From Escherichia phage EC.W14-3, in the sequence record PP496998.1: a stretch of 64,000 bases of DNA. One strand, written 5' to 3'. Of this stretch, positions 42,270 to 57,045 are shown piece by piece. The first letter of the stretch is position 1, and each line of letters begins with the position of its first letter. The position numbers were made by a program, and so were the translations under genes. The notes beneath the pieces are model-generated. The model was given only the letters and a program-made list of their open reading frames with translations, did no database searches and was not told the DNA's origin.

Positions 42270-43500
42270 TTCTCCTCTGAATAAGAGTATAAAGGGCACA
42301 TCATAAGACCTACCCGTAAAGGCCACCTCACATTAACACCCGTGAGAATACCTGTATTCATTTTCGTAGTCTTCTTCAGAGAAGCTACCGTATTCATCTT
42401 CTGTCATACATCCCTCTGATAAAGTTAAGACATAAAGGGGACGTCATCTTTGATGACTACTTCACATTAAGGCACCCCCATAAAGGCCATGTCACGTTAA
42501 GGCCTATCCATCCATGTGCTGTGTTTAAGCTTACCACATTTACTACATCTCCAAGTGGACTTATAAAGGGTGTGAACTCTTTCATCCCCGTAAGCTTTGC
42601 GTATCCGATAGTACTCATGATCACATTTGAATTGCTTAATGATTAACTTAATTTTCCACATAAGTTCTCTTTCAACCTTATATATAAGAGTTTAAAATAC
42701 AGATTTATAAAAAATAAAGATGTATATATCTGTTTAAAATTCTGATTTGACCGAGTGGGGCTAGCCGCTCGCCGCGCGTTTCCTAAAAGGGGGGAGTCCT
42801 CATTTAAAAAAGGGTTATTGGCAATGCCTTTACACCTCCTTCCACGTTCCAACCTTTCCCCGTGCCTACTCCCCGTTATTCTTTCCCCGTGTATACCATC
42901 CTATTCATTAGCTACCCGTTTATTTAGTACCCCTTTAGAGAGTGAGAGAAAGGCTATACTCTGATAAGGCACAATCATAACAGGTCTAATAATACCGTAT
43001 TGTTACCGTTCAGCTCCCCATAGTTTGAATGTAAATAGTTTCAATAGTAATGATTATGAGTGCAATAATGATGTATGTATTAATTAAGTGGATGATTGTA
43101 ATTCTTTTAATAATTGCTTTTATTCTTTTCTTTTTCAGCGTGCCTTTGTGAGCGTAGCGAACGTCTTTGATGTTTGAGTTATACAATTATTTAAGTGGTA
43201 TATTATTACCGCACTATCTTGCTATGTTTCCCCGTGGTCTACCCTGCGGTTGTATGCTCCCCGTGTCCTGGTCTGTTGGTCTGCTACCCGTAGCACCAGC
43301 GTAACACCCGTAGGATTAGTGTTATAAAGTAACAATAGCTAGTAAGCTGATTCTCTGAGTATGGAAGGTTTAGTAAATTAAATTCCTTTAGTTTTCAGTG
43401 AGTTATAAGAAAGTTAGAAAATAAATGGTTGACAGGTTTTTCCTTTATTATATAGTTGCGATTGTAATTTGTAGTTTTCATCAACCATAAGGAATATCAA
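42270..43500. promoter_or_regulatory. ORF-free divergent control region with two families of short direct repeats
   Basis: three repeats of TAAAGGCCAC..CACATTAA and about eight CCCCGT(G)/ACCCGT motifs; divergent genes on both sides. Confidence 0.45.
43429..43457 (+). promoter_or_regulatory. sigma70-type promoter
   Basis: TTGACA, 16-17 nt spacer, TATAGT, about 45 nt upstream of the first early ORF. Confidence 0.5.
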
Positions 43501-44373
43501 ATGTCTAAAGTAGCAATTAACCACTTGAACAAAGCAAACGAAAGCCTTTCCTCTTTAGGCTTAACCGTTGGTAGTCCTGATGCGTGGATGGAAAACGAAA
43601 GCGCACGTAAAGGATTCAAAAACTCTGTAATGCTGGCTTGCTTGATCATTAATTCTACTGCGAACGCCTTACAGTGTGAAGATGAAAGCACGTTCAAAGA
43701 GAATGGCTTTACCGATATACAGGACGCTATCAACTGTTACATTCAGGCAAATTTGGATAGCTGGAATCAGAAAGATTGGCCTGAGTCATGCCGTGATGTG
43801 AAAGCTGAATTATCCCGCTTGTCTGTCATGGTTGAAGCATGGAACAAGAAAAACAAGAAACAACCAATCAAGCCTACTGTTGCAAGTAAGATTATGAAGT
43901 CTGTTAATCTGGCAAGTTATGCACTGGTTGCAGCTATCGGTGTTAGTGCACTGGTCACGTCTCTTTCTGATAAGGCTATCGCTAGTCCTGCTCCTGCAAC
44001 TGATGCGGCTAGTGTCTTCTCTAGTTCCATCAATAAGGGTTGGATGATTTGCAACGGTGCGGATAGTGACGGCAATAATATCGTGCTAAAGATGAAATTT
44101 AGCAACGTAACAAATGATGGAGTTCTCTTTCAATCTAAAACGTTAGATAATCAGCCTAACAGTGATCTAGTTCTCAAGCGTACTGATAACGATGCGGATA
44201 TGGTGACATTTGGCACTGTACAACGTTATGAAGACGTTAAAGCTGTAACCAACCTAGTGAGCTATGGCCCGATCAATGAGTCGATGATCGCCACCACGGT
44301 TTACAATAACGCTGATAATGCTGTTTATACTGTTCACGTTAATTTAGCCAACTGCATTAAGGCTAGTAAGTAA
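43501..44373 (+). CDS. early protein with one central TM segment
   Basis: 290 aa; hydrophobic SVNLASYALVAAIGVSALVTSL. Confidence 0.45.
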   Translation: MSKVAINHLNKANESLSSLGLTVGSPDAWMENESARKGFKNSVMLACLIINSTANALQCEDESTFKENGFTDIQDAINCYIQANLDSWNQKDWPESCRDVKAELSRLSVMVEAWNKKNKKQPIKPTVASKIMKSVNLASYALVAAIGVSALVTSLSDKAIASPAPATDAASVFSSSINKGWMICNGADSDGNNIVLKMKFSNVTNDGVLFQSKTLDNQPNSDLVLKRTDNDADMVTFGTVQRYEDVKAVTNLVSYGPINESMIATTVYNNADNAVYTVHVNLANCIKASK

Positions 44374-44397
44374 ATAACCTATTTTGGGAGTGTAAAA

Positions 44398-44661
44398 ATG
44401 GCTATCAAAGAAATTAAGTTATCTAATGGCTTTTCTTGTTTTGTTGGTGGAAGCTCTATCCTGTTTAATACACTTGATGGTCAGATAACGTTACCTGTTA
44501 TCACTTTTTGCAGGATGGAATATCAGCCTCTTAAAGATTGGCTAGCCTTTGCTGATTTTGAAATTACCCGTGAAGACTTCAAATCAATCTATATTGACGG
44601 TGATTTATCACTGGCTAACCTGCTCAATCATGGACTAATTAAGGGTGATATTAATGGGTAA
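44398..44661 (+). CDS. hypothetical early protein
   Basis: ORF track. Confidence 0.4.
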   Translation: MAIKEIKLSNGFSCFVGGSSILFNTLDGQITLPVITFCRMEYQPLKDWLAFADFEITREDFKSIYIDGDLSLANLLNHGLIKGDING

Positions 44662-44908
44662 TGAAACAATCGCACTGATTGACACGCACAATTACGGTGG
44701 CGTTACGCTCTCCTTTGATGAGTCAATCGACTACACTTATTTGTCCTTTCTAACTAAGGGTGAAATAAAAACTATTAGCTTTCCTGCGGTCTATTTAGTA
44801 CAGGATTATCTCACTATTGGGAAGTATTTAGCCCAACGCGGGATTCTTCTGTCGCTGGAAGAAGTGGAACAGGTTAGCGTAGCATTTTTTGGCGAGGATA
44901 GCAACTAG
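44645..44908 (+). CDS. hypothetical early protein
   Basis: ORF track; overlaps previous stop. Confidence 0.4.
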   Translation: MILMGNETIALIDTHNYGGVTLSFDESIDYTYLSFLTKGEIKTISFPAVYLVQDYLTIGKYLAQRGILLSLEEVEQVSVAFFGEDSN

Positions 44909-45000
44909 TGATTCATGATTATTTTTGGCGTTGCTTGTTCGTTGTTACAGTGGCGTTATTCGTCGCTGATATGCTTTATTCTTATATTCTCTAACTATAG

Positions 45001-45378
45001 GTGATTATTATCATGGGTATTATCAAATTTGTAGTAAAAGTATTCGTGGGCTTCTTCCTTGTCGTTCTCCTGCTGGGTGTGCTCCTATCGGCTATGGGTA
45101 GCGTTAAGGCTGCAACATTCTCCCCTGCTACGGTGGAAGGTTTACAGTGCACCTATTTGATAGAAAATTATGATACCGGTAAAAAGTCACCTAAAGTTAT
45201 TATTTTGCATGTAAATGATTTCGATCATGTGCAATCAGATAGTAAAACTATTCTACTGGTAAATGAAACTACTGGTAAACAAATCACGGTCGATCACTTG
45301 ATGCGCTCATCGTTAACGCTCTTTGATGAGTCCATGAATGAAATGGCATCCGGTAATGGTCAATGTGTAAATCCATAG
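45001..45378 (+). CDS. secreted or membrane early protein
   Basis: N-terminal signal/TM FVVKVFVGFFLVVLLLGVLLSAMG. Confidence 0.4.
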   Translation: MIIIMGIIKFVVKVFVGFFLVVLLLGVLLSAMGSVKAATFSPATVEGLQCTYLIENYDTGKKSPKVIILHVNDFDHVQSDSKTILLVNETTGKQITVDHLMRSSLTLFDESMNEMASGNGQCVNP

Positions 45379-45682
45379 GCTTAATCTTTCTCCTGTATTG
45401 TGCCGTAGTCATGCCTATGGTCATAATTTATCTGATGCTTTAAATCCTTCCTGTAAGCCTCCTAGTGAGGCTTTTCTCTTTTATGAGGTGATTGTATGCC
45501 TTACTCCCTTTTAGCTCGTTGTGGTGCGTTACAGGCCGCTTATTATTGCTTTACAAGCCGTTTTCTATGATGTATCACGCGCCCCCGCTCTTTTACCTCC
45601 TGATTTCTTCCGGTGTCCTACCGACAATAAAATAAATTCCTTTATAAAACAGTGAGATGAAAAATAATTTGAAAAAAGGGTA

Positions 45683-45710
45683 TTGACATGATTTTCCTTT
45701 ATAGTAATAT
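45683..45710 (+). promoter_or_regulatory. sigma70-type promoter
   Basis: TTGACA, 16 nt spacer, TAATAT. Confidence 0.5.
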
Positions 45711-45839
45711 GAATCCCGTAGTAAGCAGTAAGTAACAACAAGTAGTAAAAACTCCTCGATAGGTGATTAGCATCACGGTAAAAGGCTTCAACGGGGAGCG
45801 GTAGGAATACCGACAGTAAGACGCACAATGAAGGTGCTA

Positions 45840-45849
45840 CGCTCTTTAA
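45840..45849 (+). repeat. CGCTCTTTAA motif, copy 1 of 4
   Basis: further exact copies at 45950, 46078 and 46311, each followed by an A-rich run. Confidence 0.5.
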
Positions 45850-45888
45850 AAATCAGGCTAGAAAGTGAAAATATTCTTAAAAAGAGTA

Positions 45889-45917
45889 TTGACACCGAAA
45901 ACAGCCTGATTCATAAT
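45889..45917 (+). promoter_or_regulatory. sigma70-type promoter (duplicate of the promoter at 46192)
   Basis: TTGACA, 17 nt spacer, CATAAT; about 50 bp near-identical to 46180..46240. Confidence 0.55.
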
Positions 45918-45949
45918 AAGCACTCAGTCAGCGATGACTTAAAAAATCC

Positions 45950-45959
45950 CGCTCTTTAA
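45950..45959 (+). repeat. CGCTCTTTAA motif, copy 2
   Basis: exact 10-mer. Confidence 0.5.
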
Positions 45960-46077
45960 AAACTTATCATCTTGCCTTTTCGCATAGATTCACGCGAGAT
46001 AAGGGAAAAGAATAAAAGAAGATGATAAAAAAGAGATTGACAAGCTAACACGATGTGTTAAGCTGTAAATGCTACAC

Positions 46078-46087
46078 CGCTCTTTAA
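46078..46087 (+). repeat. CGCTCTTTAA motif, copy 3
   Basis: exact 10-mer. Confidence 0.5.
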
Positions 46088-46191
46088 CAATATGAATCAT
46101 AAGTTAAGCATCACCGCTTAATCTTCAATCAAATAAAGCTGATTGATATATCCTCCCAATAGCGGGAACGACGAAAAAGATTAAAAAGTGG

Positions 46192-46220
46192 TTGACAGCG
46201 AAAACAACATGATTCATAAT
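46192..46220 (+). promoter_or_regulatory. sigma70-type promoter (duplicate of the promoter at 45889)
   Basis: TTGACA, 17 nt spacer, CATAAT. Confidence 0.55.
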
Positions 46221-46310
46221 GAGCACTCACTAAGCAAATCACCGCTTCAGTGAAAAGCGTAACAACGGCTAACAGTTGCATAGTGTGAGAAAGCACACTG
46301 ATAGATTTAC

Positions 46311-46320
46311 CGCTCTTTAA
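46311..46320 (+). repeat. CGCTCTTTAA motif, copy 4
   Basis: exact 10-mer. Confidence 0.5.
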
Positions 46321-48041: not shown

Positions 48042-48143
48042 GTAAGACAATTTAAATAAACATAAGGTGCTATCTTAACGGGTAGCGCCTTTTCTTTTAT
48101 CAGTGCATTGATTCAGTGCATTAATCAAAGAATTTAATCAAAG

Positions 48144-50087: not shown

Positions 50088-50286
50088 TCACTAGTGCCAG
50101 ATTTGACAAACTAAATTCCTTTATAAACCAACCACTTAGTAAATTTATTGAAAAAGATGGTAGTATTCTGGGACTATGGGTAATGCTCTGTATATAGACC
50201 CTTTGAAAATTTCTTAGAAAATAAGTTTACTAAATATAACTTACTTAAATAATATTACTTTTAATCTCTGATAAAGGGTAAATAAT

Positions 50287-50583
50287 ATGACTTTAGAAGT
50301 ATATAAATTCCTTTTTGTAAGCTGTTTAACTATCAGCGTTCTAGGATTTATTGTTCTAAGAAACAAAGCAGCAAGCTGGGAAAGAATGTATAAATCCCTA
50401 GTCCGAGTGGATGAGATGTATAATGAGAAGGTTAAAGTAACACTCAACGATCTTATTATGCAAGTTGAGGACAGAAACAAGCGTCTTCAGAACCTCAATC
50501 ACGAAGTGTTACGCCTTGCTCGTGCTAATGAAGACTTGCGAATAGCTATTGCTAAGCAGCAGGAGATTAACAGTGATAATTGA
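50287..50583 (+). CDS. membrane protein with N-terminal TM and coiled coil
   Basis: FLFVSCLTISVLGFIVL then heptad-like region. Confidence 0.4.
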   Translation: MTLEVYKFLFVSCLTISVLGFIVLRNKAASWERMYKSLVRVDEMYNEKVKVTLNDLIMQVEDRNKRLQNLNHEVLRLARANEDLRIAIAKQQEINSDN

Positions 50584-50584
50584 T

Positions 50585-50809
50585 ATGAACAACGCCCCAA
50601 AGGTTTTAACTCTTGGGGATTTAGAATCAGGTGATGTATTCCAGTTCCCTCTGGATGGGGAGAATTACTATATGTTATCTAGTCAGAAGTTTGGGACAAC
50701 AGACAAGAGAAGTTATATCAATCTTTCCTGTGGCGTTATTGCAACGGATGAAGGTAATACAGTCATCAAGAAGGTCAGCAATGCTCGGCTTACCAATAAG
50801 GTGGATTAA
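50585..50809 (+). CDS. GDVF-family small protein, paralog A
   Basis: shared pattern L.LGDL..GDVF ... YYM ... G with seven other ORFs. Confidence 0.45.
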   Translation: MNNAPKVLTLGDLESGDVFQFPLDGENYYMLSSQKFGTTDKRSYINLSCGVIATDEGNTVIKKVSNARLTNKVD

Positions 50810-50811
50810 CA

Positions 50812-51048
50812 GTGAAAGTTAATATTAAATCCGATCGTACAATGCTTCGCTTAAACAACATGAAGCCGGGCGTTCTATTTGAGCGTAAAGAATCCCTTTA
50901 CATTAGAACCGACACATTGTACGCAGACAATTATGTCAACTGTGTTGATGTGGTAACTGGAAAGCTCATTCCTTTTAAACGGGATGAAGTCTGCCAAGTA
51001 CGCAGCGATCTCCACATAACTAACATAGAGGCTAAAGATGAAGATTGA
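50812..51048 (+). CDS. GDVF-family small protein, paralog B (divergent)
   Basis: PGVLF ... YI ... VNCVDVVTG pattern; tandem position. Confidence 0.4.
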   Translation: MKVNIKSDRTMLRLNNMKPGVLFERKESLYIRTDTLYADNYVNCVDVVTGKLIPFKRDEVCQVRSDLHITNIEAKDED

Positions 51049-51295
51049 TTTGAAGGTAAATGAACCATCTTTGTGTGTTGGTGATCTCAAACTTGGAGAT
51101 GTATTCCAAATCAGGGAAACACGAGCAGATTTCTACATGGTTGTTCAGCTATTTACCTCACAGATTGAAGAGACCAAGCCTTCTGATGGGGGTTGTGTCG
51201 TCCTTAGTCTGACAAATAAGCAAGTCCTTAAGCTTAGCTCGAAAAGCAAGGTTGTTCTTCTTCATGATGTTGTTATTACTAACAAGGGCAAGTAG
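51038..51295 (+). CDS. GDVF-family small protein, paralog C
   Basis: VGDLKLGDVFQ ... FYMVV. Confidence 0.45.
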   Translation: MKIDLKVNEPSLCVGDLKLGDVFQIRETRADFYMVVQLFTSQIEETKPSDGGCVVLSLTNKQVLKLSSKSKVVLLHDVVITNKGK

Positions 51296-51514
51296 ATGGA
51301 AATTAAAGTAGTTGATTATCCTAAATATGCAAATGCAGAAGATGTTAAAGGTGGTGATGTTTTCTCTTACGACAGACGTTTCTGGCTGATGTTAGAAGAT
51401 AAAACTCCCGATGGTTTATGTAAGGCCGCCAATCTGAACAGCGGTTCTGTTGAAGTCTTCGGTCTATCAACCACTGTTATGCCACGCCCTGATCTGTGTT
51501 TATCCCAAAAGTAA
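51296..51514 (+). CDS. GDVF-family small protein, paralog D
   Basis: VKGGDVFSY ... FWLML ... ANLNSGSV. Confidence 0.45.
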   Translation: MEIKVVDYPKYANAEDVKGGDVFSYDRRFWLMLEDKTPDGLCKAANLNSGSVEVFGLSTTVMPRPDLCLSQK

Positions 51515-51522
51515 CATCGACT

Positions 51523-51609
51523 TATAGCCCTTGTGTTTATCAGAGGGCTATGTGAGGGTGTTCCTCATTAACTTATTAATTCAGGCATATGCCACACCGC
51601 TAGGGAGAG
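51523..51609 (+). repeat. conserved intergenic element, copy A (hairpin ATAGCCCT..AGGGCTAT + GTGAG; GCTAGGGAGAG box)
   Basis: same components recur at 56671..56760. Confidence 0.45.
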
Positions 51610-51872
51610 CTTGCTCGAACATCCGGTGTTAGACTAAAACCTGTTCAATTTCGGTAGACTTTCCACTACGTAGGGGTACGTATTGGTTTGGGATTCAGGA
51701 GATCTCCTAGGGGTAGGAGGTCTTCACCAGTTGGGATAAGAGATAGCTCTAGAACCTGAACTCTTAGGCAGAGAGGGTCGGCAATGAGTACGAGGTCAGA
51801 ATTAGCCTCCTGACTAGGGCTATCCCTTATATCAACTGGCAATAATGCCTCCACTAATAAAGAGAGAACGTT

Positions 51873-52013
51873 ATGAAGAAGTCAACCAAGAGTATGAACC
51901 GTCCTGAGCGTATGGATGCAGTAGCAAATGGTGCACTGAAGATCGAGTCTGCCATGCTGCGTCTGATGGGTAACATCCGTAAGCGTCAAGGTGGTTGGGT
52001 TTACAATAACTGA
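51873..52013 (+). CDS. small basic protein (46 aa)
   Basis: ATG after AGAGAGAA; translation checked by hand; below ORF-track cutoff. Confidence 0.3.
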   Translation: MKKSTKSMNRPERMDAVANGALKIESAMLRLMGNIRKRQGGWVYNN

Positions 52014-52226
52014 TTTAATAAAAGGCTGCCTAGAAATAGGTGGCCTTTGTTGTTTTAATTAAGGGTCAACTCTTACTTAAACTAACAACGGGTGTATGGT
52101 ATTGACAGGCATCGGCACGGAACTTGTTACCAACAAGGTTGGCGAATCAAGACCTCTGTGAAGCTCCGAAGAAATCAAGGCAGGTTCGACTCCTGCTCCC
52201 CGACCAAATCAGCAAGAGGTGCTTAT

Positions 52227-53177: not shown

Positions 53178-53253
53178 GCGCTCTTAGCTCAATGGATAGA
53201 GCAGTAGCCTTCTAAGCTATTGGTTACAGGTTCGAGTCCTGTAGGGCGCACCA
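53178..53253 (+). tRNA. tRNA-Arg, anticodon UCU
   Basis: hand-folded cloverleaf: 7-bp acceptor stem (one G-U), D-arm GCTC/GAGC, anticodon loop CTTCTAA, T-arm ACAGG-TTCGAGT-CCTGT, discriminator A and encoded CCA. Confidence 0.8.
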
Positions 53254-54364: not shown

Positions 54365-54622
54365 ATGGACGGAGAAATGGTTTCATATATAGCCATGACC
54401 TACTTGGTAGGTTGGTGGGTTGCAGTGTTGGTGGTGAAGTGGTGCTTCAAGAGAGGGAAGTTTAAAACTTTCCTACATACTCCTTGGGGGAACCCTGACG
54501 AAACTGCAATGTGGGTTGTGATCTTCTTCTGGCCTGTTATCTTATTATTCTTTATCATCTTCCCAATCCTACTACTATTTGACACTGTATTATGTAGGCT
54601 TACTAATTTTATAGTAAAGTAA
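54365..54622 (+). CDS. small membrane protein with two TM helices
   Basis: two hydrophobic segments separated by a basic loop. Confidence 0.4.
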   Translation: MDGEMVSYIAMTYLVGWWVAVLVVKWCFKRGKFKTFLHTPWGNPDETAMWVVIFFWPVILLFFIIFPILLLFDTVLCRLTNFIVK

Positions 54623-54912
54623 TATCGTGAAGGACTCTTACGAGAGTCCTTTGAGATAGGACTTCAGATCTCCTATCAAACTAACATTCATGTAACTAGC
54701 CCATAAGGGCGTTACCCTTTAATAACCCAGCCCACTAAGGGGGCGGGAGTTTAGTGCTGGATGAGCATAACGCTTATTCCTACAAAGGCAACCGATTGTT
54801 AGATCTTACATGCAATATTAATTAATAGGATAAGGGAGGATTCGTCCCCTCCCCCTATTTTATTGAATCTTTATCTAAGCAAGTCTTATATAAACATTTA
54901 ATCGGAGGGTAT

Positions 54913-56183: not shown

Positions 56184-56417
56184 ATGTCTAAAGTAAGCGC
56201 AATCGATGCAATCCGTCAACCGTTCCAGTTCCAATCCAAATCAACCCAAACCTTCAGTGAGCCTAAGCAAATTCGCTTGGGTGGCACAGAGAAGACTGTG
56301 TTTGATCTGGCTAAAAACAAGAGCGTTACCGTAGTTGATGGTGGCACTCTGGTTAACGTTTCCCATCGTATCCGCACTGGCAAAACTGCCAAAGATCGTG
56401 CTAAGAAAGGTGAGTGA
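56184..56417 (+). CDS. hypothetical protein
   Basis: ORF track. Confidence 0.35.
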   Translation: MSKVSAIDAIRQPFQFQSKSTQTFSEPKQIRLGGTEKTVFDLAKNKSVTVVDGGTLVNVSHRIRTGKTAKDRAKKGE

Positions 56418-56659
56418 TGAAAATAGGGAAACCAGCTAAGGATGTTCTAGCGAAGATTGGTGATATCTCTATTGGGGAAGTTTTCTCAGCTGAGCACTTT
56501 TCAAGTTACTACATGAGAATCCCTGACACTAAAGTTGAGGGTTGCATCATCCCTGCCAACGCAGTTAACCTGAACACAGGACACCTGTCTGCATTCAAAC
56601 CTGATTCACAGGTTACTGAAATCAAAGATGCCTACCTCGCCTTTGGTGGGGATAAGTAG
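56414..56659 (+). CDS. GDVF-family small protein, paralog H
   Basis: IGDISIGEVFS ... YYMRI ... VNLNTG. Confidence 0.45.
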   Translation: MMKIGKPAKDVLAKIGDISIGEVFSAEHFSSYYMRIPDTKVEGCIIPANAVNLNTGHLSAFKPDSQVTEIKDAYLAFGGDK

Positions 56660-56670
56660 AGTAACATCTA

Positions 56671-56760
56671 TAGCCTTCTTCTGAGGGCTATGTGAGTTAT
56701 TCTGACTCAACTAACCTAATCTTAATATATTTCCCGTATGGGGCCGATGCTAGGGAGAGG
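56671..56760 (+). repeat. conserved intergenic element, copy B
   Basis: hairpin ATAGCC..GGCTAT + GTGAG, GCTAGGGAGAG, GTTCCTCA and ACATCCG boxes shared with copy A. Confidence 0.45.
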
Positions 56761-57045
56761 AGTGTTCCTCAAACATCCGTCGGATAGATATTTTAAGAGC
56801 AGGTTATCCACAGATATTGGGTAATATCTTTTTGGATTTAAAGCTTGGCTCTTTTCGGAGAGTCCTTTTTTAAATTCAATGAGAGGAAATATGTCTAAAT
56901 TAGATTTAAAACTGCTAGCAGCAGCGGTAGTGATTTGTGCACTAGCACTGGTAACGCAGAGAACATCTGGATTTATTCAGTGTTTCTTTTCTGGGCAATC
57001 CACTTATCAGTGGGTTATTGACGAGTGTAAACAACAGGAGTAAGT

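What the first reader, a model, noticed from the sequence alone, without database searches (positions are those of the whole stretch)
51515..51650. Two copies of a conserved intergenic element with a perfect hairpin plus GTGAG and a GCTAGGGAGAG box
After the gene ending at 51514 and again after the gene ending at 56659 (copy at 56665..56790) there is a hairpin (ATAGCCCT-N12-AGGGCTAT in copy A; ATAGCC-N10-GGCTAT in copy B) followed directly by GTGAG, then GTTCCTCA, GCTAGGGAGAG and ACATCCG boxes in slightly different order. There is no T-run, so these are not standard intrinsic terminators; they could be RNA processing sites, protein-binding sites or a small mobile/repeated element.
Basis: seen in the sequence. 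Interest (0 to 1): 0.45.

Follow-up and report, generated by a model that had tools for sequence, protein, structure and literature searches.

The report
Conserved structured RNA in phage operon
Two copies of a ~125-base folded RNA element sit at the ends of early gene blocks in phiEco32-like coliphages, just upstream of transcription stop signals; the element is conserved across these phages, matches no catalogued RNA family, and probably controls or processes the phage's long early transcript.

Summary
The window is a Kuravirus, 100% identical to Escherichia phage EC.W8-1. The two copies are paralogues of one structured module on the sense strand, each starting at a stop codon.

P1 and P1b are abutting hairpins. 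An A/U-rich linker follows. Mini-hairpin P1c then stacks on P2, which encloses an invariant 7x7 internal loop (CUAGGGN / RAACAUC) capped by P3.

- **Model test:** a covariance model built without copy A finds it at E=2e-9.
- **Covariation:** all 342 pair cells are standard pairs, and 7 of 13 pairs show compensatory changes.
- **Strand:** G-U pairs point to the + strand.
- **Distribution:** about 100 Kuravirus/Suseptimavirus genomes carry two copies each. Salmonella phage 7-11 and one unrelated podophage contig carry one each.
- **Conservation:** the cores are better conserved than the flanking genes.
- **Databases and papers:** no Rfam hit, and no mention in the papers I could read.

Function is inferred only. 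I favour a cis-acting, factor-recognised RNA that governs read-through at the intrinsic terminator 50-400 nt downstream (confidence 0.3). The rivals are a processing/stability site and a stable trans-acting RNA.

Copy B also carries a near-copy of the DnaA double box that is bound in vivo upstream of host nrdD.

The parts
51510..51522 (+). Copy A 5' lead AGUAACAUCGACU. It overlaps the stop codon of the upstream gene (51512-51514).
   Evidence: AGU(A/G)AC is present in all 14 aligned Kuravirus/7-11 sequences. The upstream gene differs among strains, and the junction falls exactly here.
51523..51552 (+). Copy A helix P1 (UAUAGCCCU...AGGGCUAUG)
   Evidence: Predicted in every lineage. 9 pairs in the RNAalifold consensus. 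L049 has a hairpin of wholly different sequence at the same place.
51553..51567 (+). Copy A helix P1b (UGAGG-GUGUU-CCUCA), abutting P1
   Evidence: In the B-type copies the GAGU/ACUC stem changes to GAGC/GCUC in SU7, a compensatory change.
51568..51583 (+). Copy A A/U-rich single-stranded linker
   Evidence: A/U-rich in all lineages. Its sequence is not conserved between A, B and L049.
51584..51593 (+). Copy A mini-hairpin P1c (GGC-AUAU-GCC), stacked on P2
   Evidence: 2 of 3 pairs covary (CG:15/GC:12 and CG:20/GC:7).
51594..51629 (+). Copy A P2 (ACACCG/CGGUGU), enclosing the invariant internal loop CUAGGGA (51600-51606) / GAACAUC (51617-51623) and P3 (GAG-CUUG-CUC, 51607-51616)
   Evidence: 4 of 6 P2 pairs have changes on both sides and 100% of cells are paired. 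Covariance-model match at E=2e-9, although copy A was not in the training set.
51663..51686 (+). Copy A hairpin H4: 10-bp stem with GGGG loop (CCACUACGUA-GGGG-UACGUAUUGG)
   Evidence: 7 distinct sequences; 69 of 70 cells paired. Pairs 3 and 7 vary (A-U/G-C/G-U and C-G/U-A/U-G).
51698..51725 (+). Copy A hairpin H5: 12-bp stem with GGGG loop (GGAGAUCUCCUA-GGGG-UAGGAGGUCUUC)
   Evidence: Compensatory changes at several pairs across 6 related sequences.
51727..51839 (+). Copy A distal stem (CCAGUUGG.../...CAACUGG) enclosing a strain-variable insert
   Evidence: Inverted repeat I1, 26 nt, 85% complementary. The insert is replaced by other hairpins in NJ01 and SU7.
52021..52058 (+). Terminator-like hairpin plus U-rich tail downstream of copy A, after the 46-aa gene at 51873-52013
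56660..56668 (+). Copy B 5' lead AGUAACAUC, directly after the stop codon at 56657-56659
   Evidence: The upstream cassette is swapped or absent in other strains, with the junction here.
56669..56692 (+). Copy B helix P1 (UAUAGCCUUC-UUCU-GAGGGCUAUG)
56693..56709 (+). Copy B helix P1b (UGAGU-UAUUCUG-ACUCA)
   Evidence: U-A changes to C-G in SU7.
56710..56732 (+). Copy B A/U-rich linker (ACUAACCUAAUCUUAAUAUAUUU). It can pair with 56790-56806 (P0).
   Evidence: ACUAACCUAAUCUU is identical in Kuravirus and 7-11. The P0 pairing is predicted in all B-type folds.
56733..56742 (+). Copy B mini-hairpin P1c (CCC-GUAU-GGG)
56744..56783 (+). Copy B P2 (CCGAUG/CGUCGG), internal loop CUAGGGA (56750-56756) / AAACAUC (56771-56777), and P3 (GAGGA-GUGU-UCCUC, 56757-56770)
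56793..56812 (.). DnaA double box TTAAGAGCA-gg-TTATCCACA in the 3' extension of copy B. It is part of a 42-nt match to the E. coli nrdD upstream region.
   Evidence: 36 of 42 nt match 5326 of 5426 E. coli genomes at one place, 14-55 nt upstream of the nrdD ATG on the opposite strand. The host site tTTAAGAACAggTTATCCACAg is DnaA-bound in ChIP-seq (PMC11317965).
56813..56828 (+). Copy B hairpin GAUAUU-GGGU-AAUAUC (counterpart of H4)
56847..56872 (+). Intrinsic terminator GGCUCUUUUCGGAGAGUCC plus U6, 64 nt after the copy B core. The next gene starts at 56891.
   Evidence: The stem and U-tract are conserved in SU7 and 7-11, where they are annotated as a terminator.
54617..54870 (+). Region C, a third and partial paralogue. 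It has AGUAAUAUCG, two hairpins and a CAAACUAAC linker like the 5' half of A/B. It lacks the P2/internal-loop/P3 domain and ends in a terminator at 54834-54862.
   Evidence: Alignment. Fold z-score = -5.06. Conserved in SU7. Not matched by model R1.

Best explanation
Shown:
- The two copies are paralogous instances of a ~125-nt structured module carried on the sense (+) strand of the phage's early polycistronic transcript.
- Each copy begins at the stop codon of the preceding gene.
- The module consists of two abutting hairpins (P1, P1b), an A/U-rich linker, and a mini-hairpin (P1c) stacked on P2.
- P2 encloses an invariant 7x7 internal loop (CUAGGGN opposite RAACAUC), which is capped by P3.
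- The helices covary while the internal loop stays invariant across three phage lineages.

Inferred:
- It acts as RNA, in cis.
- The invariant internal loop is the docking site for a factor, which could be RNA polymerase itself, a host or phage protein, or a ligand.
- The bound module decides whether polymerase passes the intrinsic terminator 50-400 nt downstream. This would gate expression of the next gene block, working like a put or nut site placed just before a terminator.
- The extra hairpins with G-rich loops would be auxiliary binding or folding elements. The same would hold for the DnaA double box in copy B.
For: Structure:
- 100% of 342 pair cells are standard pairs. 7 of 13 pairs have changes on both sides. 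0 of 500 shuffles reach the observed covariation score, and register-shifted controls collapse.
- P1 and P1b fold in every lineage, including L049, which has unrelated stem sequences.
- H4 and H5 covary.

Strand: U-G pairs are frequent (17 sequences in P2, many in H4). No A-C pairs are seen, so folding is specific to the + strand. Both copies are flanked only by + strand genes.

Selection: between Kuravirus and Suseptimavirus the cores are 88% (A) and 83.5% (B) identical, against 62-65% for the flanking genes. B against 7-11 is 72%, against 66.5% for the COOH-NH2 ligase gene. The 399-aa protein downstream of B is only about 42% identical between the two genera.

Link to terminators:
- B is followed after 64 nt by a canonical terminator, which is conserved in SU7 and 7-11.
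- In 7-11 this is the only terminator annotated in the 40-90 kb stretch that holds the early region.
- L049 has a terminator-like hairpin about 55 nt after its core.
- A is followed by one at 52021.
- The partial paralogue C ends in one at 54834.

Need for read-through:
- The strong sigma-70 promoters lie only at 43429-46220.
- No phage-sigma motif was found on the + strand after 46 kb, apart from one 1-mismatch match at 50384.
- Only weak 9/12 sigma-70 matches lie downstream of 56872.
- The 7-11 study states that early transcripts cover almost half the genome and that an antitermination strategy 'remains to be defined' (PMC8948821).
Against: - No transcript data exist, and nothing here shows an effect on termination.
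- The copies lie 5.3 and 10.4 kb from the strong promoters, unlike put or nut.
- Terminator-like hairpins at 48064 and 49623 have no such module upstream.
- Four rrn/lambda-type boxA motifs sit just downstream of the early promoters. These already offer a Nus-dependent antitermination route.
- Copy A is separated from its terminator by a 46-aa gene.
- A conserved terminator/antiterminator alternative pairing was not found in B-type copies.
- Privateervirus, Libingvirus and Crifsvirus relatives, which have similar operons, lack the module.
Confidence: 0.3

Rival explanations
1. RNA processing and stability punctuation. The A/U-rich linker would be an RNase E (or RNase III) entry site flanked by protective structures. 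P1/P1b would become the 3' stabiliser of the upstream mRNA. P1c/P2/P3 would become a 5' cap-like structure for the downstream RNA. This would cut the long early transcript into stable units, as the RNase III sites do in the T7 early region.
For: - The modules sit exactly at cistron boundaries and start at a stop codon.
- The early RNA is a long polycistron (PMC8948821) that contains a tRNA gene needing excision.
- The layout is hairpins, then an A/U-rich single strand, then hairpins, in all lineages.
- The 5' half alone recurs a third time in region C.
- The upstream gene can be swapped while the module is kept, as expected of a generic 3' stabiliser.
- P1c+P2+loop+P3 would stack to about 21 layers.
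Against: - Generic RNase E/III recognition does not explain 14 invariant loop nucleotides across deep divergence.
- There are only 2-3 sites among dozens of cistron boundaries.
- The Watson-Crick helices (6 and 4-5 bp) are short for RNase III.
Confidence: 0.25
2. Source of a stable trans-acting non-coding RNA. Copy B would be a 3'-UTR-derived RNA ending at the terminator. It would act as a decoy or sponge for a protein that binds the UAGGG-type loops, or as an antisense regulator of the host nrdD leader.
For: - B has a defined terminator 3' end and is 95-99% identical in most of the 108 matching phage records.
- The UAGGG(G) motif recurs in the internal loop and in hairpin loops.
- Window 56791-56832 is antisense to the nrdD 5' leader. 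The predicted duplex is -55.9 kcal/mol, against -26.0 +/- 3.8 for shuffles.
Against: - Copy A has no terminator of its own and no match in E. coli.
- No conserved promoter lies upstream, because the upstream genes vary.
- The nrdD match coincides with a DnaA double box bound in vivo, which explains the similarity at the DNA level.
- The complementarity between 7-11 and Salmonella nrdD is weak, with z about -2.7.
Confidence: 0.15
3. DNA-level element. The options are single-stranded DNA hairpins plus a DnaA box acting as a priming or replication signal, a DnaA sink or roadblock, or a conserved anchor for homologous recombination that shuffles the gene cassettes upstream.
For: - B carries a perfect R1/R4-type DnaA box within a double box that differs at one base from the nrdD site bound by DnaA.
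- The 13-mer AGGTTATCCACAG is invariant in all B-type copies.
- At least 6 different upstream genes abut copy A, and at least 4 arrangements abut copy B, all joined at AGTAAC.
Against: - Copy A and L049 have the core but no DnaA box.
- DnaA boxes in the window occur at chance frequency (7 found, 6.8 expected).
- The pattern of covariation with G-U pairs fits one strand only, and that strand is the transcribed sense strand.
- Recombination anchoring would explain the mosaic edges but not the compensatory changes.
Confidence: 0.1
4. Small-molecule riboswitch whose aptamer is the P1c/P2/P3 domain. It would switch the downstream terminator (B, 7-11, L049) or the ribosome-binding site (A).
For: - Invariant unpaired nucleotides sit in a frame of covarying helices.
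- In three lineages the order is aptamer, terminator, ribosome-binding site.
Against: - No conserved antiterminator alternative was found. AAGAGC:GCUCUU is possible only in Kuravirus B.
- The downstream genes are unrelated: a 46-aa protein, a 50-aa membrane protein, an endolysin, and small ORFs.
- No Rfam riboswitch match.
Confidence: 0.07
5. Functionless remnant of a segmental duplication that copied a gene together with its downstream spacer.
For: In this window the genes upstream of A and B are paralogues. The protein upstream of B matches phrog_6570 at 3.6e-8.
Against: - The modules persist where the upstream gene is replaced.
- They are better conserved than coding neighbours.
- They show compensatory substitutions.
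- They occur in a distant phage with different stems and an identical internal loop.
Confidence: 0.03

Closest known systems
HK022 put RNAs (putL, putR). Definition recalled from King et al. 1996, not re-read here.
   Same: - Cis-encoded RNA in phage early operons, in two copies per genome.
- Two stem-loops with at most 1 nt between them, like P1/P1b.
- Proposed to act on terminators downstream.
   Different: - No sequence comparison was possible.
- This module has a second, larger domain that carries the invariant loop.
- It lies 5-10 kb from the strong promoters rather than promoter-proximal.
- No functional data.
Lambda nut sites (boxA + boxB)
   Same: - Two copies in the early transcription units.
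- nutR lies after the first gene, just upstream of terminator tR1, as copy B lies just upstream of its terminator.
- Recognition of an RNA structure by a factor.
   Different: - No boxA inside the modules. The boxA motifs lie at 45840-46311, next to the promoters.
- No 5-bp boxB hairpin with a GNRA-like pentaloop.
- No N-like protein identified.
T7 early RNase III processing sites (R0.3-R1.3). From general knowledge.
   Same: - Conserved irregular hairpins with an internal loop at cistron boundaries.
- They sit in a long early transcript driven by tandem strong sigma-70 promoters.
- One of them lies just before the early terminator.
   Different: - The helices here are short, and the element has several domains.
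- Only 2-3 sites per genome.
- Cleavage was not tested.
3'-UTR-derived enterobacterial sRNAs (for example CpxQ, SroC) and phage-encoded sRNAs
   Same: - Copy B is a highly conserved 3' region ending in an intrinsic terminator.
- It is complementary to a host leader (nrdD).
   Different: - Copy A has no terminator.
- The complementarity coincides with a DnaA double box.
- No evidence of a processed stable species.
DnaA 'double box' upstream of E. coli nrdD (PMC11317965)
   Same: Window 56792-56813, tTTAAGAGCAggTTATCCACAg, differs at one base from the host site tTTAAGAACAggTTATCCACAg, which is bound in ChIP-seq. The similarity continues into ATTGGG-AA.
   Different: - It applies only to the 3' extension of copy B, not to the shared core.
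- Binding to phage DNA is untested.
- In the phage it lies inside a transcribed spacer, next to a terminator.
T4-type PeSL modules (promoter-early stem-loop repeats). From general knowledge.
   Same: Conserved intergenic stem-loop sequences at the edges of variable gene cassettes in a phage early region.
   Different: - No promoter in the module.
- Compensatory changes indicate selection on structure, not merely on sequence homology for recombination.

Membership tests
Intrinsic (Rho-independent) terminator | G+C-rich hairpin immediately followed by a U-tract | tested here: not met
   The P1 hairpins (51523-51552, 56669-56692) are followed by UGAGG/UGAGU, not by U-runs. The terminator scan does not list them. 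It does list separate sites at 52021 and 56847.
Any Rfam 15 family | cmscan match at the gathering score, or at least E<=10 in a local search | tested here: not met
   Whole window: only tRNA. 51450-51900: no match at E<=10. 56600-56920: four sub-threshold chance matches, all far below their gathering scores.
tRNA / tmRNA | Cloverleaf detected by ARAGORN | tested here: not met
   Only tRNA-Arg(UCU) at 53178-53253.
HK022 put RNA | Two stem-loops separated by at most one unpaired nucleotide | tested here: met
   P1 and P1b abut (0-1 nt between them) in most lineages (two unpaired nt in the 7-11-type folds). The definition of the feature is from memory.
HK022 put RNA | Promoter-proximal position in the early operon | tested here: not met
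   The strong promoters end at 46220. The copies start at 51510 and 56660.
HK022 put RNA | Confers factor-independent terminator read-through in cis; similarity to putL/putR | not tested
Lambda-type nut site | boxA motif (CGCUCUUA-like) next to a boxB hairpin, within the element | tested here: not met
   No + strand YGCTCTTWA within 51505-51875 or 56655-56890. The exact motifs lie at 45840, 45950, 46078 and 46311.
T7-type RNase III site | Irregular hairpin of about two helical turns with an internal loop | tested here: inconclusive
   P1c (3 bp), P2 (6), the 7x7 loop and P3 (4-5) could stack to about 21 layers, but only 13-15 are Watson-Crick or G-U pairs.
T7-type RNase III site | Cleavage by RNase III | not testable with these tools
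   Needs an in vitro cleavage assay or end mapping in an rnc mutant.
Riboswitch / attenuator | Aptamer-like core: invariant unpaired nucleotides framed by covarying helices | tested here: met
   The loops CUAGGGN / RAACAUC are invariant in 27 distinct sequences.
Riboswitch / attenuator | Conserved, mutually exclusive terminator and antiterminator pairings | tested here: not met
   AAGAGC:GCUCUU is possible in Kuravirus B only. It is degraded in 7-11. Copy A has no adjacent terminator.
Riboswitch / attenuator | Consistent functional class of downstream genes | tested here: not met
   Downstream genes are a 46-aa protein, a 50-aa membrane protein, an endolysin (7-11) and small ORFs (L049).
Small mobile element (MITE-like) | Multiple dispersed copies with terminal inverted repeats or target duplications | tested here: not met
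   Two full copies, at fixed syntenic sites in 98-108 phage records. No third copy by motif or model search. The inverted repeats found are internal helices.
DnaA double box (3' extension of copy B only) | Consensus 9-mer TTATCCACA with a second box 2-3 bp upstream | tested here: met
   56793-56801 TTAAGAGCA, gg, 56804-56812 TTATCCACA. One base differs from the nrdD double box listed in PMC11317965.
DnaA double box (3' extension of copy B only) | Bound by DnaA | not testable with these tools
   Binding has been shown only for the host nrdD site.
3'-UTR-derived sRNA | Ends at an intrinsic terminator; discrete stable species | tested here: inconclusive
   A terminator is present for B and absent for A. 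No transcript data are available.

The most novel reading that the evidence does not exclude
The module is a new class of cis-acting RNA that reprogrammes host RNA polymerase, alone or with a phage or host factor bound to the invariant CUAGGGN/RAACAUC loop, to pass intrinsic terminators. This would supply the antitermination strategy that the 7-11 study left undefined. In copy B the module would be coupled to a captured host DnaA double box, so that read-through into the delayed-early genes (or nrdD expression, through antisense pairing) would respond to the host's replication state.
Probability: 0.12. Interest if true: 0.8.

Novelty: new variant of a known kind. Interest (0 to 1): 0.55.

Why it matters
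- **Transcription model.** phiEco32-like phages are a model for phage control of host transcription (own sigma factor, gp79). How their very long sigma-70-driven early operons pass internal terminators is an acknowledged open point (PMC8948821).
- **A concrete candidate.** A strongly conserved, covarying RNA module sits immediately before those terminators. It is cheap to test with loop and compensatory mutants, in vitro transcription and Term-seq.
- **Value regardless of mechanism.** It is a well-supported new structured RNA family, with 27 distinct sequences, three lineages and an invariant 14-nt loop. None of the roughly 100 deposited genomes I looked at annotates it.
- **A link to the host.** The near-copy of the DnaA-bound nrdD site points to a possible link between this phage group and host replication and dNTP control.

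Tried and rejected
- **Rfam, whole window and local E<=10 searches**: nothing.
- **ARAGORN**: only tRNA-Arg.
- **Phage-sigma promoter motif TAATGTATA and the 7-11 late motif GTAATG-N16-ACTA**: absent from the modules.
- **Sigma-70 promoter just upstream of the modules**: the upstream sequence is not conserved.
- **Mobile-element reading**: rejected on copy number and synteny.
- **Pattern scans.** Three viral-contig scans, one metagenome scan and one genome scan. Every hit outside Kuravirus, Suseptimavirus, 7-11-like contigs and L049 lacked P2 pairing and was judged chance.
- **Covariance-model searches of relatives**: negative in Citrobacter CVT22, Erwinia Pecta, Klebsiella Klyazma and phage T2S1. 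Also negative in Cronobacter 009, Proteus 3H10_20, Aeromonas BUCT695 and Escherichia ECO319P1.
- **7-11**: only one copy in 40-90 kb.
- **More L049-like contigs**: the search found only CVT22.
- **Plasmid collection**: only mislabelled E. coli chromosomes.
- **Classical terminator/antiterminator switch**: not conserved.
- **GNRA-receptor, kink-turn and loop-E readings of the internal loop**: considered from memory and dropped, because the sequences do not fit.
- **Long P1 extension (GUAAC:GUUAU) in copy B**: disfavoured, because the SU7 changes compensate in P1b and not in that extension.
- **Pavlova 2012 and Savalia 2008**: could not be read.
Full report
**Identity of the window.** The region is 100% identical to Escherichia phage EC.W8-1 (Kuravirus, Gordonclarkvirinae; record coordinate = window + 12408). 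Positions 43-64 kb form the early region, which consists of dozens of small + strand genes.

**Check of the observation.**
- The 14-mer GAGGGCTATGTGAG and the 11-mer GCTAGGGAGAG occur exactly twice in 64 kb, only at these two loci.
- A pairwise alignment also shows shared GTAACATC before the hairpin, and similarity continuing downstream.
- A covariance model (R1) was built from B-type, 7-11 and L049 sequences only. It finds copy A at 51580-51635 (E=2e-9) and copy B at 56729-56790 (E=3e-22), and nothing else below E=1 in the window.

**Anatomy.** Comparison of 27 distinct sequences resolves the 'boxes' into helices.
- P1 is A 51523-51552 and B 56669-56692.
- P1b abuts P1.
- An A/U-rich linker follows.
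- The 3-bp hairpin P1c has an RUAU loop and stacks on P2 (A: ACACCG/CGGUGU; B: CCGAUG/CGUCGG).
- P2 encloses a symmetric 7x7 internal loop, CUAGGGN opposite RAACAUC, which is capped by P3 (GAG...CUC).
- GTTCCTCA is the 3' arm of P1b in copy A and of P3 in copy B. This explains the 'different order' of boxes.

RNAalifold recovers P1, P1c, P2 and P3. On the model-guided alignment:
- All 342 pair cells are standard pairs.
- 7 of 13 pairs have changes on both sides.
- No shuffle out of 500 reaches the observed covariation score.
- Sliding the 3' partners by 1-3 columns lowers pairing to 32-49%.

That alignment was fitted to the structure, so the pairing percentage leans towards it. However, copy A and its 12 variants were not used to build the model.

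Downstream hairpins also covary. H4 has a 10-bp stem with a GGGG loop, and H5 has a 12-bp stem with a GGGG loop.

G-U pairs are common and A-C pairs are not seen, so the fold belongs to the + strand. Both copies are flanked only by + strand genes, so this is the transcribed sense strand.

**Distribution.**
- Copy A is in 98 phage records at 86-100% identity.
- The copy B region matched 108 records; 105 are Kuravirus, Suseptimavirus or 7-11-group phages, and three weak short matches are unrelated.
- Salmonella phage 7-11 and related metagenomic contigs carry one B-type copy. The 40-90 kb half of 7-11, which holds the whole early region, has only that one.
- One distant homologue turned up in a 48.7-kb contig binned as Flavobacterium. 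It is really a Citrovirus-like podophage, whose 446-aa protein is 41% identical to one of CVT22. Its stems are entirely different (P1 GUUAAGCGU/GCGCUUAAC; P2 AAUAGCG/CGCUAUU), but its internal loops are identical.
- Relatives of both groups lack the module.
- Relaxed pattern scans gave only chance hits.

**Selection.**
- Between Kuravirus and Suseptimavirus the cores are 88% (A) and 83.5% (B) identical, against 62-65% for neighbouring genes.
- The 399-aa protein just downstream of B is about 42% identical between the two genera.
- B against 7-11 is 72%, against 66.5% for the conserved ligase gene.
- The gene upstream of either copy differs among strains. For B it is a membrane protein in NJ01, an 81-aa protein here, and absent in L027. 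At least six different genes precede A. The junction is always at AGTAAC.
- In this window the two upstream genes happen to be paralogues of phrog_6570.

**Context.**
- Strong sigma-70 promoters lie at 43429, 45683, 45889 and 46192.
- Terminator-like hairpins on the + strand lie at 48064, 49623, 52021, 54834 and 56847.
- Copy B's core ends 64 nt before the canonical terminator at 56847-56872. The next gene starts 19 nt after that terminator, which leaves no room for a promoter in between.
- Copy A is followed by a 46-aa gene and then the hairpin at 52021.
- A third non-coding stretch, region C (54617-54870, fold z = -5.06), shares the 5' half of the module: AGUAAUAUCG, two hairpins, and a CAAACUAAC linker. 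It lacks P2/loop/P3 and ends in the 54834 terminator. It is conserved in SU7.
- In 7-11 the terminator after the module is the only one annotated in the stretch that holds the early region.
- In L049 a terminator-like hairpin follows the core by about 55 nt.
- No phage-sigma motif was found on the + strand after 46 kb, apart from one 1-mismatch match at 50384. No strong sigma-70 promoter lies after 56872.
- The 7-11 paper reports early transcripts covering almost half the genome. It states that an antitermination strategy 'remains to be defined'.

**What is known.** There is no Rfam match. The element is not mentioned in the phiEco32-group papers I could read. Pavlova 2012 and Savalia 2008 were not available.

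**Mechanism.**

Shown: a conserved, strand-specific, multi-helix structure with an invariant internal loop. It is embedded in early operons and associated with downstream terminators.

Inferred: it acts as RNA in cis, the loop binds a factor, and the outcome is control of read-through at the next terminator. I put this at 0.3.

Arguments against the favoured model:
- The modules are far from the promoters.
- Two terminator-like sites (48064, 49623) have no module upstream.
- Four rrn/lambda-type boxA motifs lie just after the early promoters. One of them, CGCTCTTTAACAATA, matches 12 of 13 positions of rrn boxA as I recall it. These give an independent Nus-based antitermination route.

Rivals:
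- *Processing and stability site (0.25).* It is favoured by the hairpins/AU-linker/hairpins layout and by the third copy of the 5' half.
- *Stable trans-acting RNA (0.15).*
- *DNA-level role (0.1).*
- *Small-molecule riboswitch (0.07).*
- *Inert duplication remnant (0.03).*

**Side finding tied to copy B.**
- Window 56791-56832 matches one place in 5326 of 5426 E. coli genomes (36 of 42 nt). That place is 14-55 nt upstream of the nrdD start codon, on the opposite strand. Salmonella has the same core there.
- The host site, tTTAAGAACAggTTATCCACAg, is a DnaA 'double box' bound in ChIP-seq (PMC11317965). The phage has tTTAAGAGCAggTTATCCACAg.
- Two readings are possible. Either DnaA binds the phage DNA here, or the B transcript pairs with the nrdD leader. 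The predicted duplex is -55.9 kcal/mol, against -26.0 +/- 3.8 for shuffles.
- Copy A has no such match, so this feature is an add-on to copy B and not part of the shared core.

**Verdict.** This is a real, well-supported and apparently undescribed structured RNA module. Its mechanism is unproven. Interest is moderate to fairly high, because it gives a testable candidate for an open question in this phage group.

Noticed in passing
window 56791-56832 (double box at 56793-56812): There is a near-copy (36 of 42 nt) of the E. coli nrdD upstream region. It includes the DnaA double box tTTAAGAACAggTTATCCACAg, which is bound by DnaA in ChIP-seq. The match is present at one place in 5326 of 5426 E. 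coli genomes. In the phage the + strand is antisense to the nrdD leader. The 13-mer AGGTTATCCACAG is invariant in all B-type copies, including 7-11.
   Followed up: partly
window 45840, 45950, 46078, 46311 (+ strand); also L049:350 and L055:1281: Four exact boxA motifs of the rrn/lambda type (CGCTCTTTA...; 46078 reads CGCTCTTTAACAATA) lie on the + strand. Each lies some 30-130 nt downstream of a sigma-70 early promoter or promoter-like TTGACA site. About 2 exact matches are expected in the window; 10 were found, with 4 clustered within 470 nt. An exact rrn boxA also heads the early region of the L049 phage. This suggests Nus-factor antitermination of early transcripts. No paper linking boxA with phiEco32 was found.
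   Followed up: partly
window 54617-54870: Region C is a third structured non-coding stretch (fold z = -5.06). It shares AGUAAUAUCG, two hairpins and a CAAACUAAC linker with the 5' half of copies A and B. It lacks the invariant-loop domain and ends in a terminator at 54834. It is conserved in SU7.
   Followed up: partly
window 50549-51514 and 56414-56659: There is a tandem family of small paralogous proteins (72-86 aa, with a shared G-D/E-V-F motif; phrog_6570 and relatives). Four are in a row upstream of copy A and one is upstream of copy B. Their function is unknown.
   Followed up: partly
junctions at window 51510 and 56660; loci L002, L027, L028, L031, L041, L043, L016, L042: The gene immediately upstream of each module is a hot spot of cassette exchange among strains. 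Genes there are different, absent or swapped, and the break is always at (A/G)AGTAAC.
   Followed up: partly
window 51727-51839: The distal stem of copy A (CCAGUUGG/CAACUGG) encloses a ~100-nt insert. The insert has its own 11-bp stem (GAUAGCUCUAG/CUAGGGCUAUC). In NJ01 and SU7 it is replaced by unrelated shorter hairpins.
   Followed up: no
window 43374-43448, 45628-45702, 50108-50155; 45889-45932 and 46192-46235: Promoter-region modules are repeated in two families. One is AAATTCCTTTA...TTGACA. The other is TTGACA-N17-CATAAT at 86% identity. They mark tandem strong early promoters, as in the T7 early region.
   Followed up: no
L049 1900-5700: In the Citrovirus-like contig many small early proteins end in ...(D/E)EENE. 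Their stop codons overlap the next start codon (GAGGAGAATGAGTGA), a regular translational-coupling signature.
   Followed up: no
window 53178-53253: tRNA-Arg(UCU) is embedded in the early operon between copies A and B, so the early transcript must be processed at least there.
   Followed up: no
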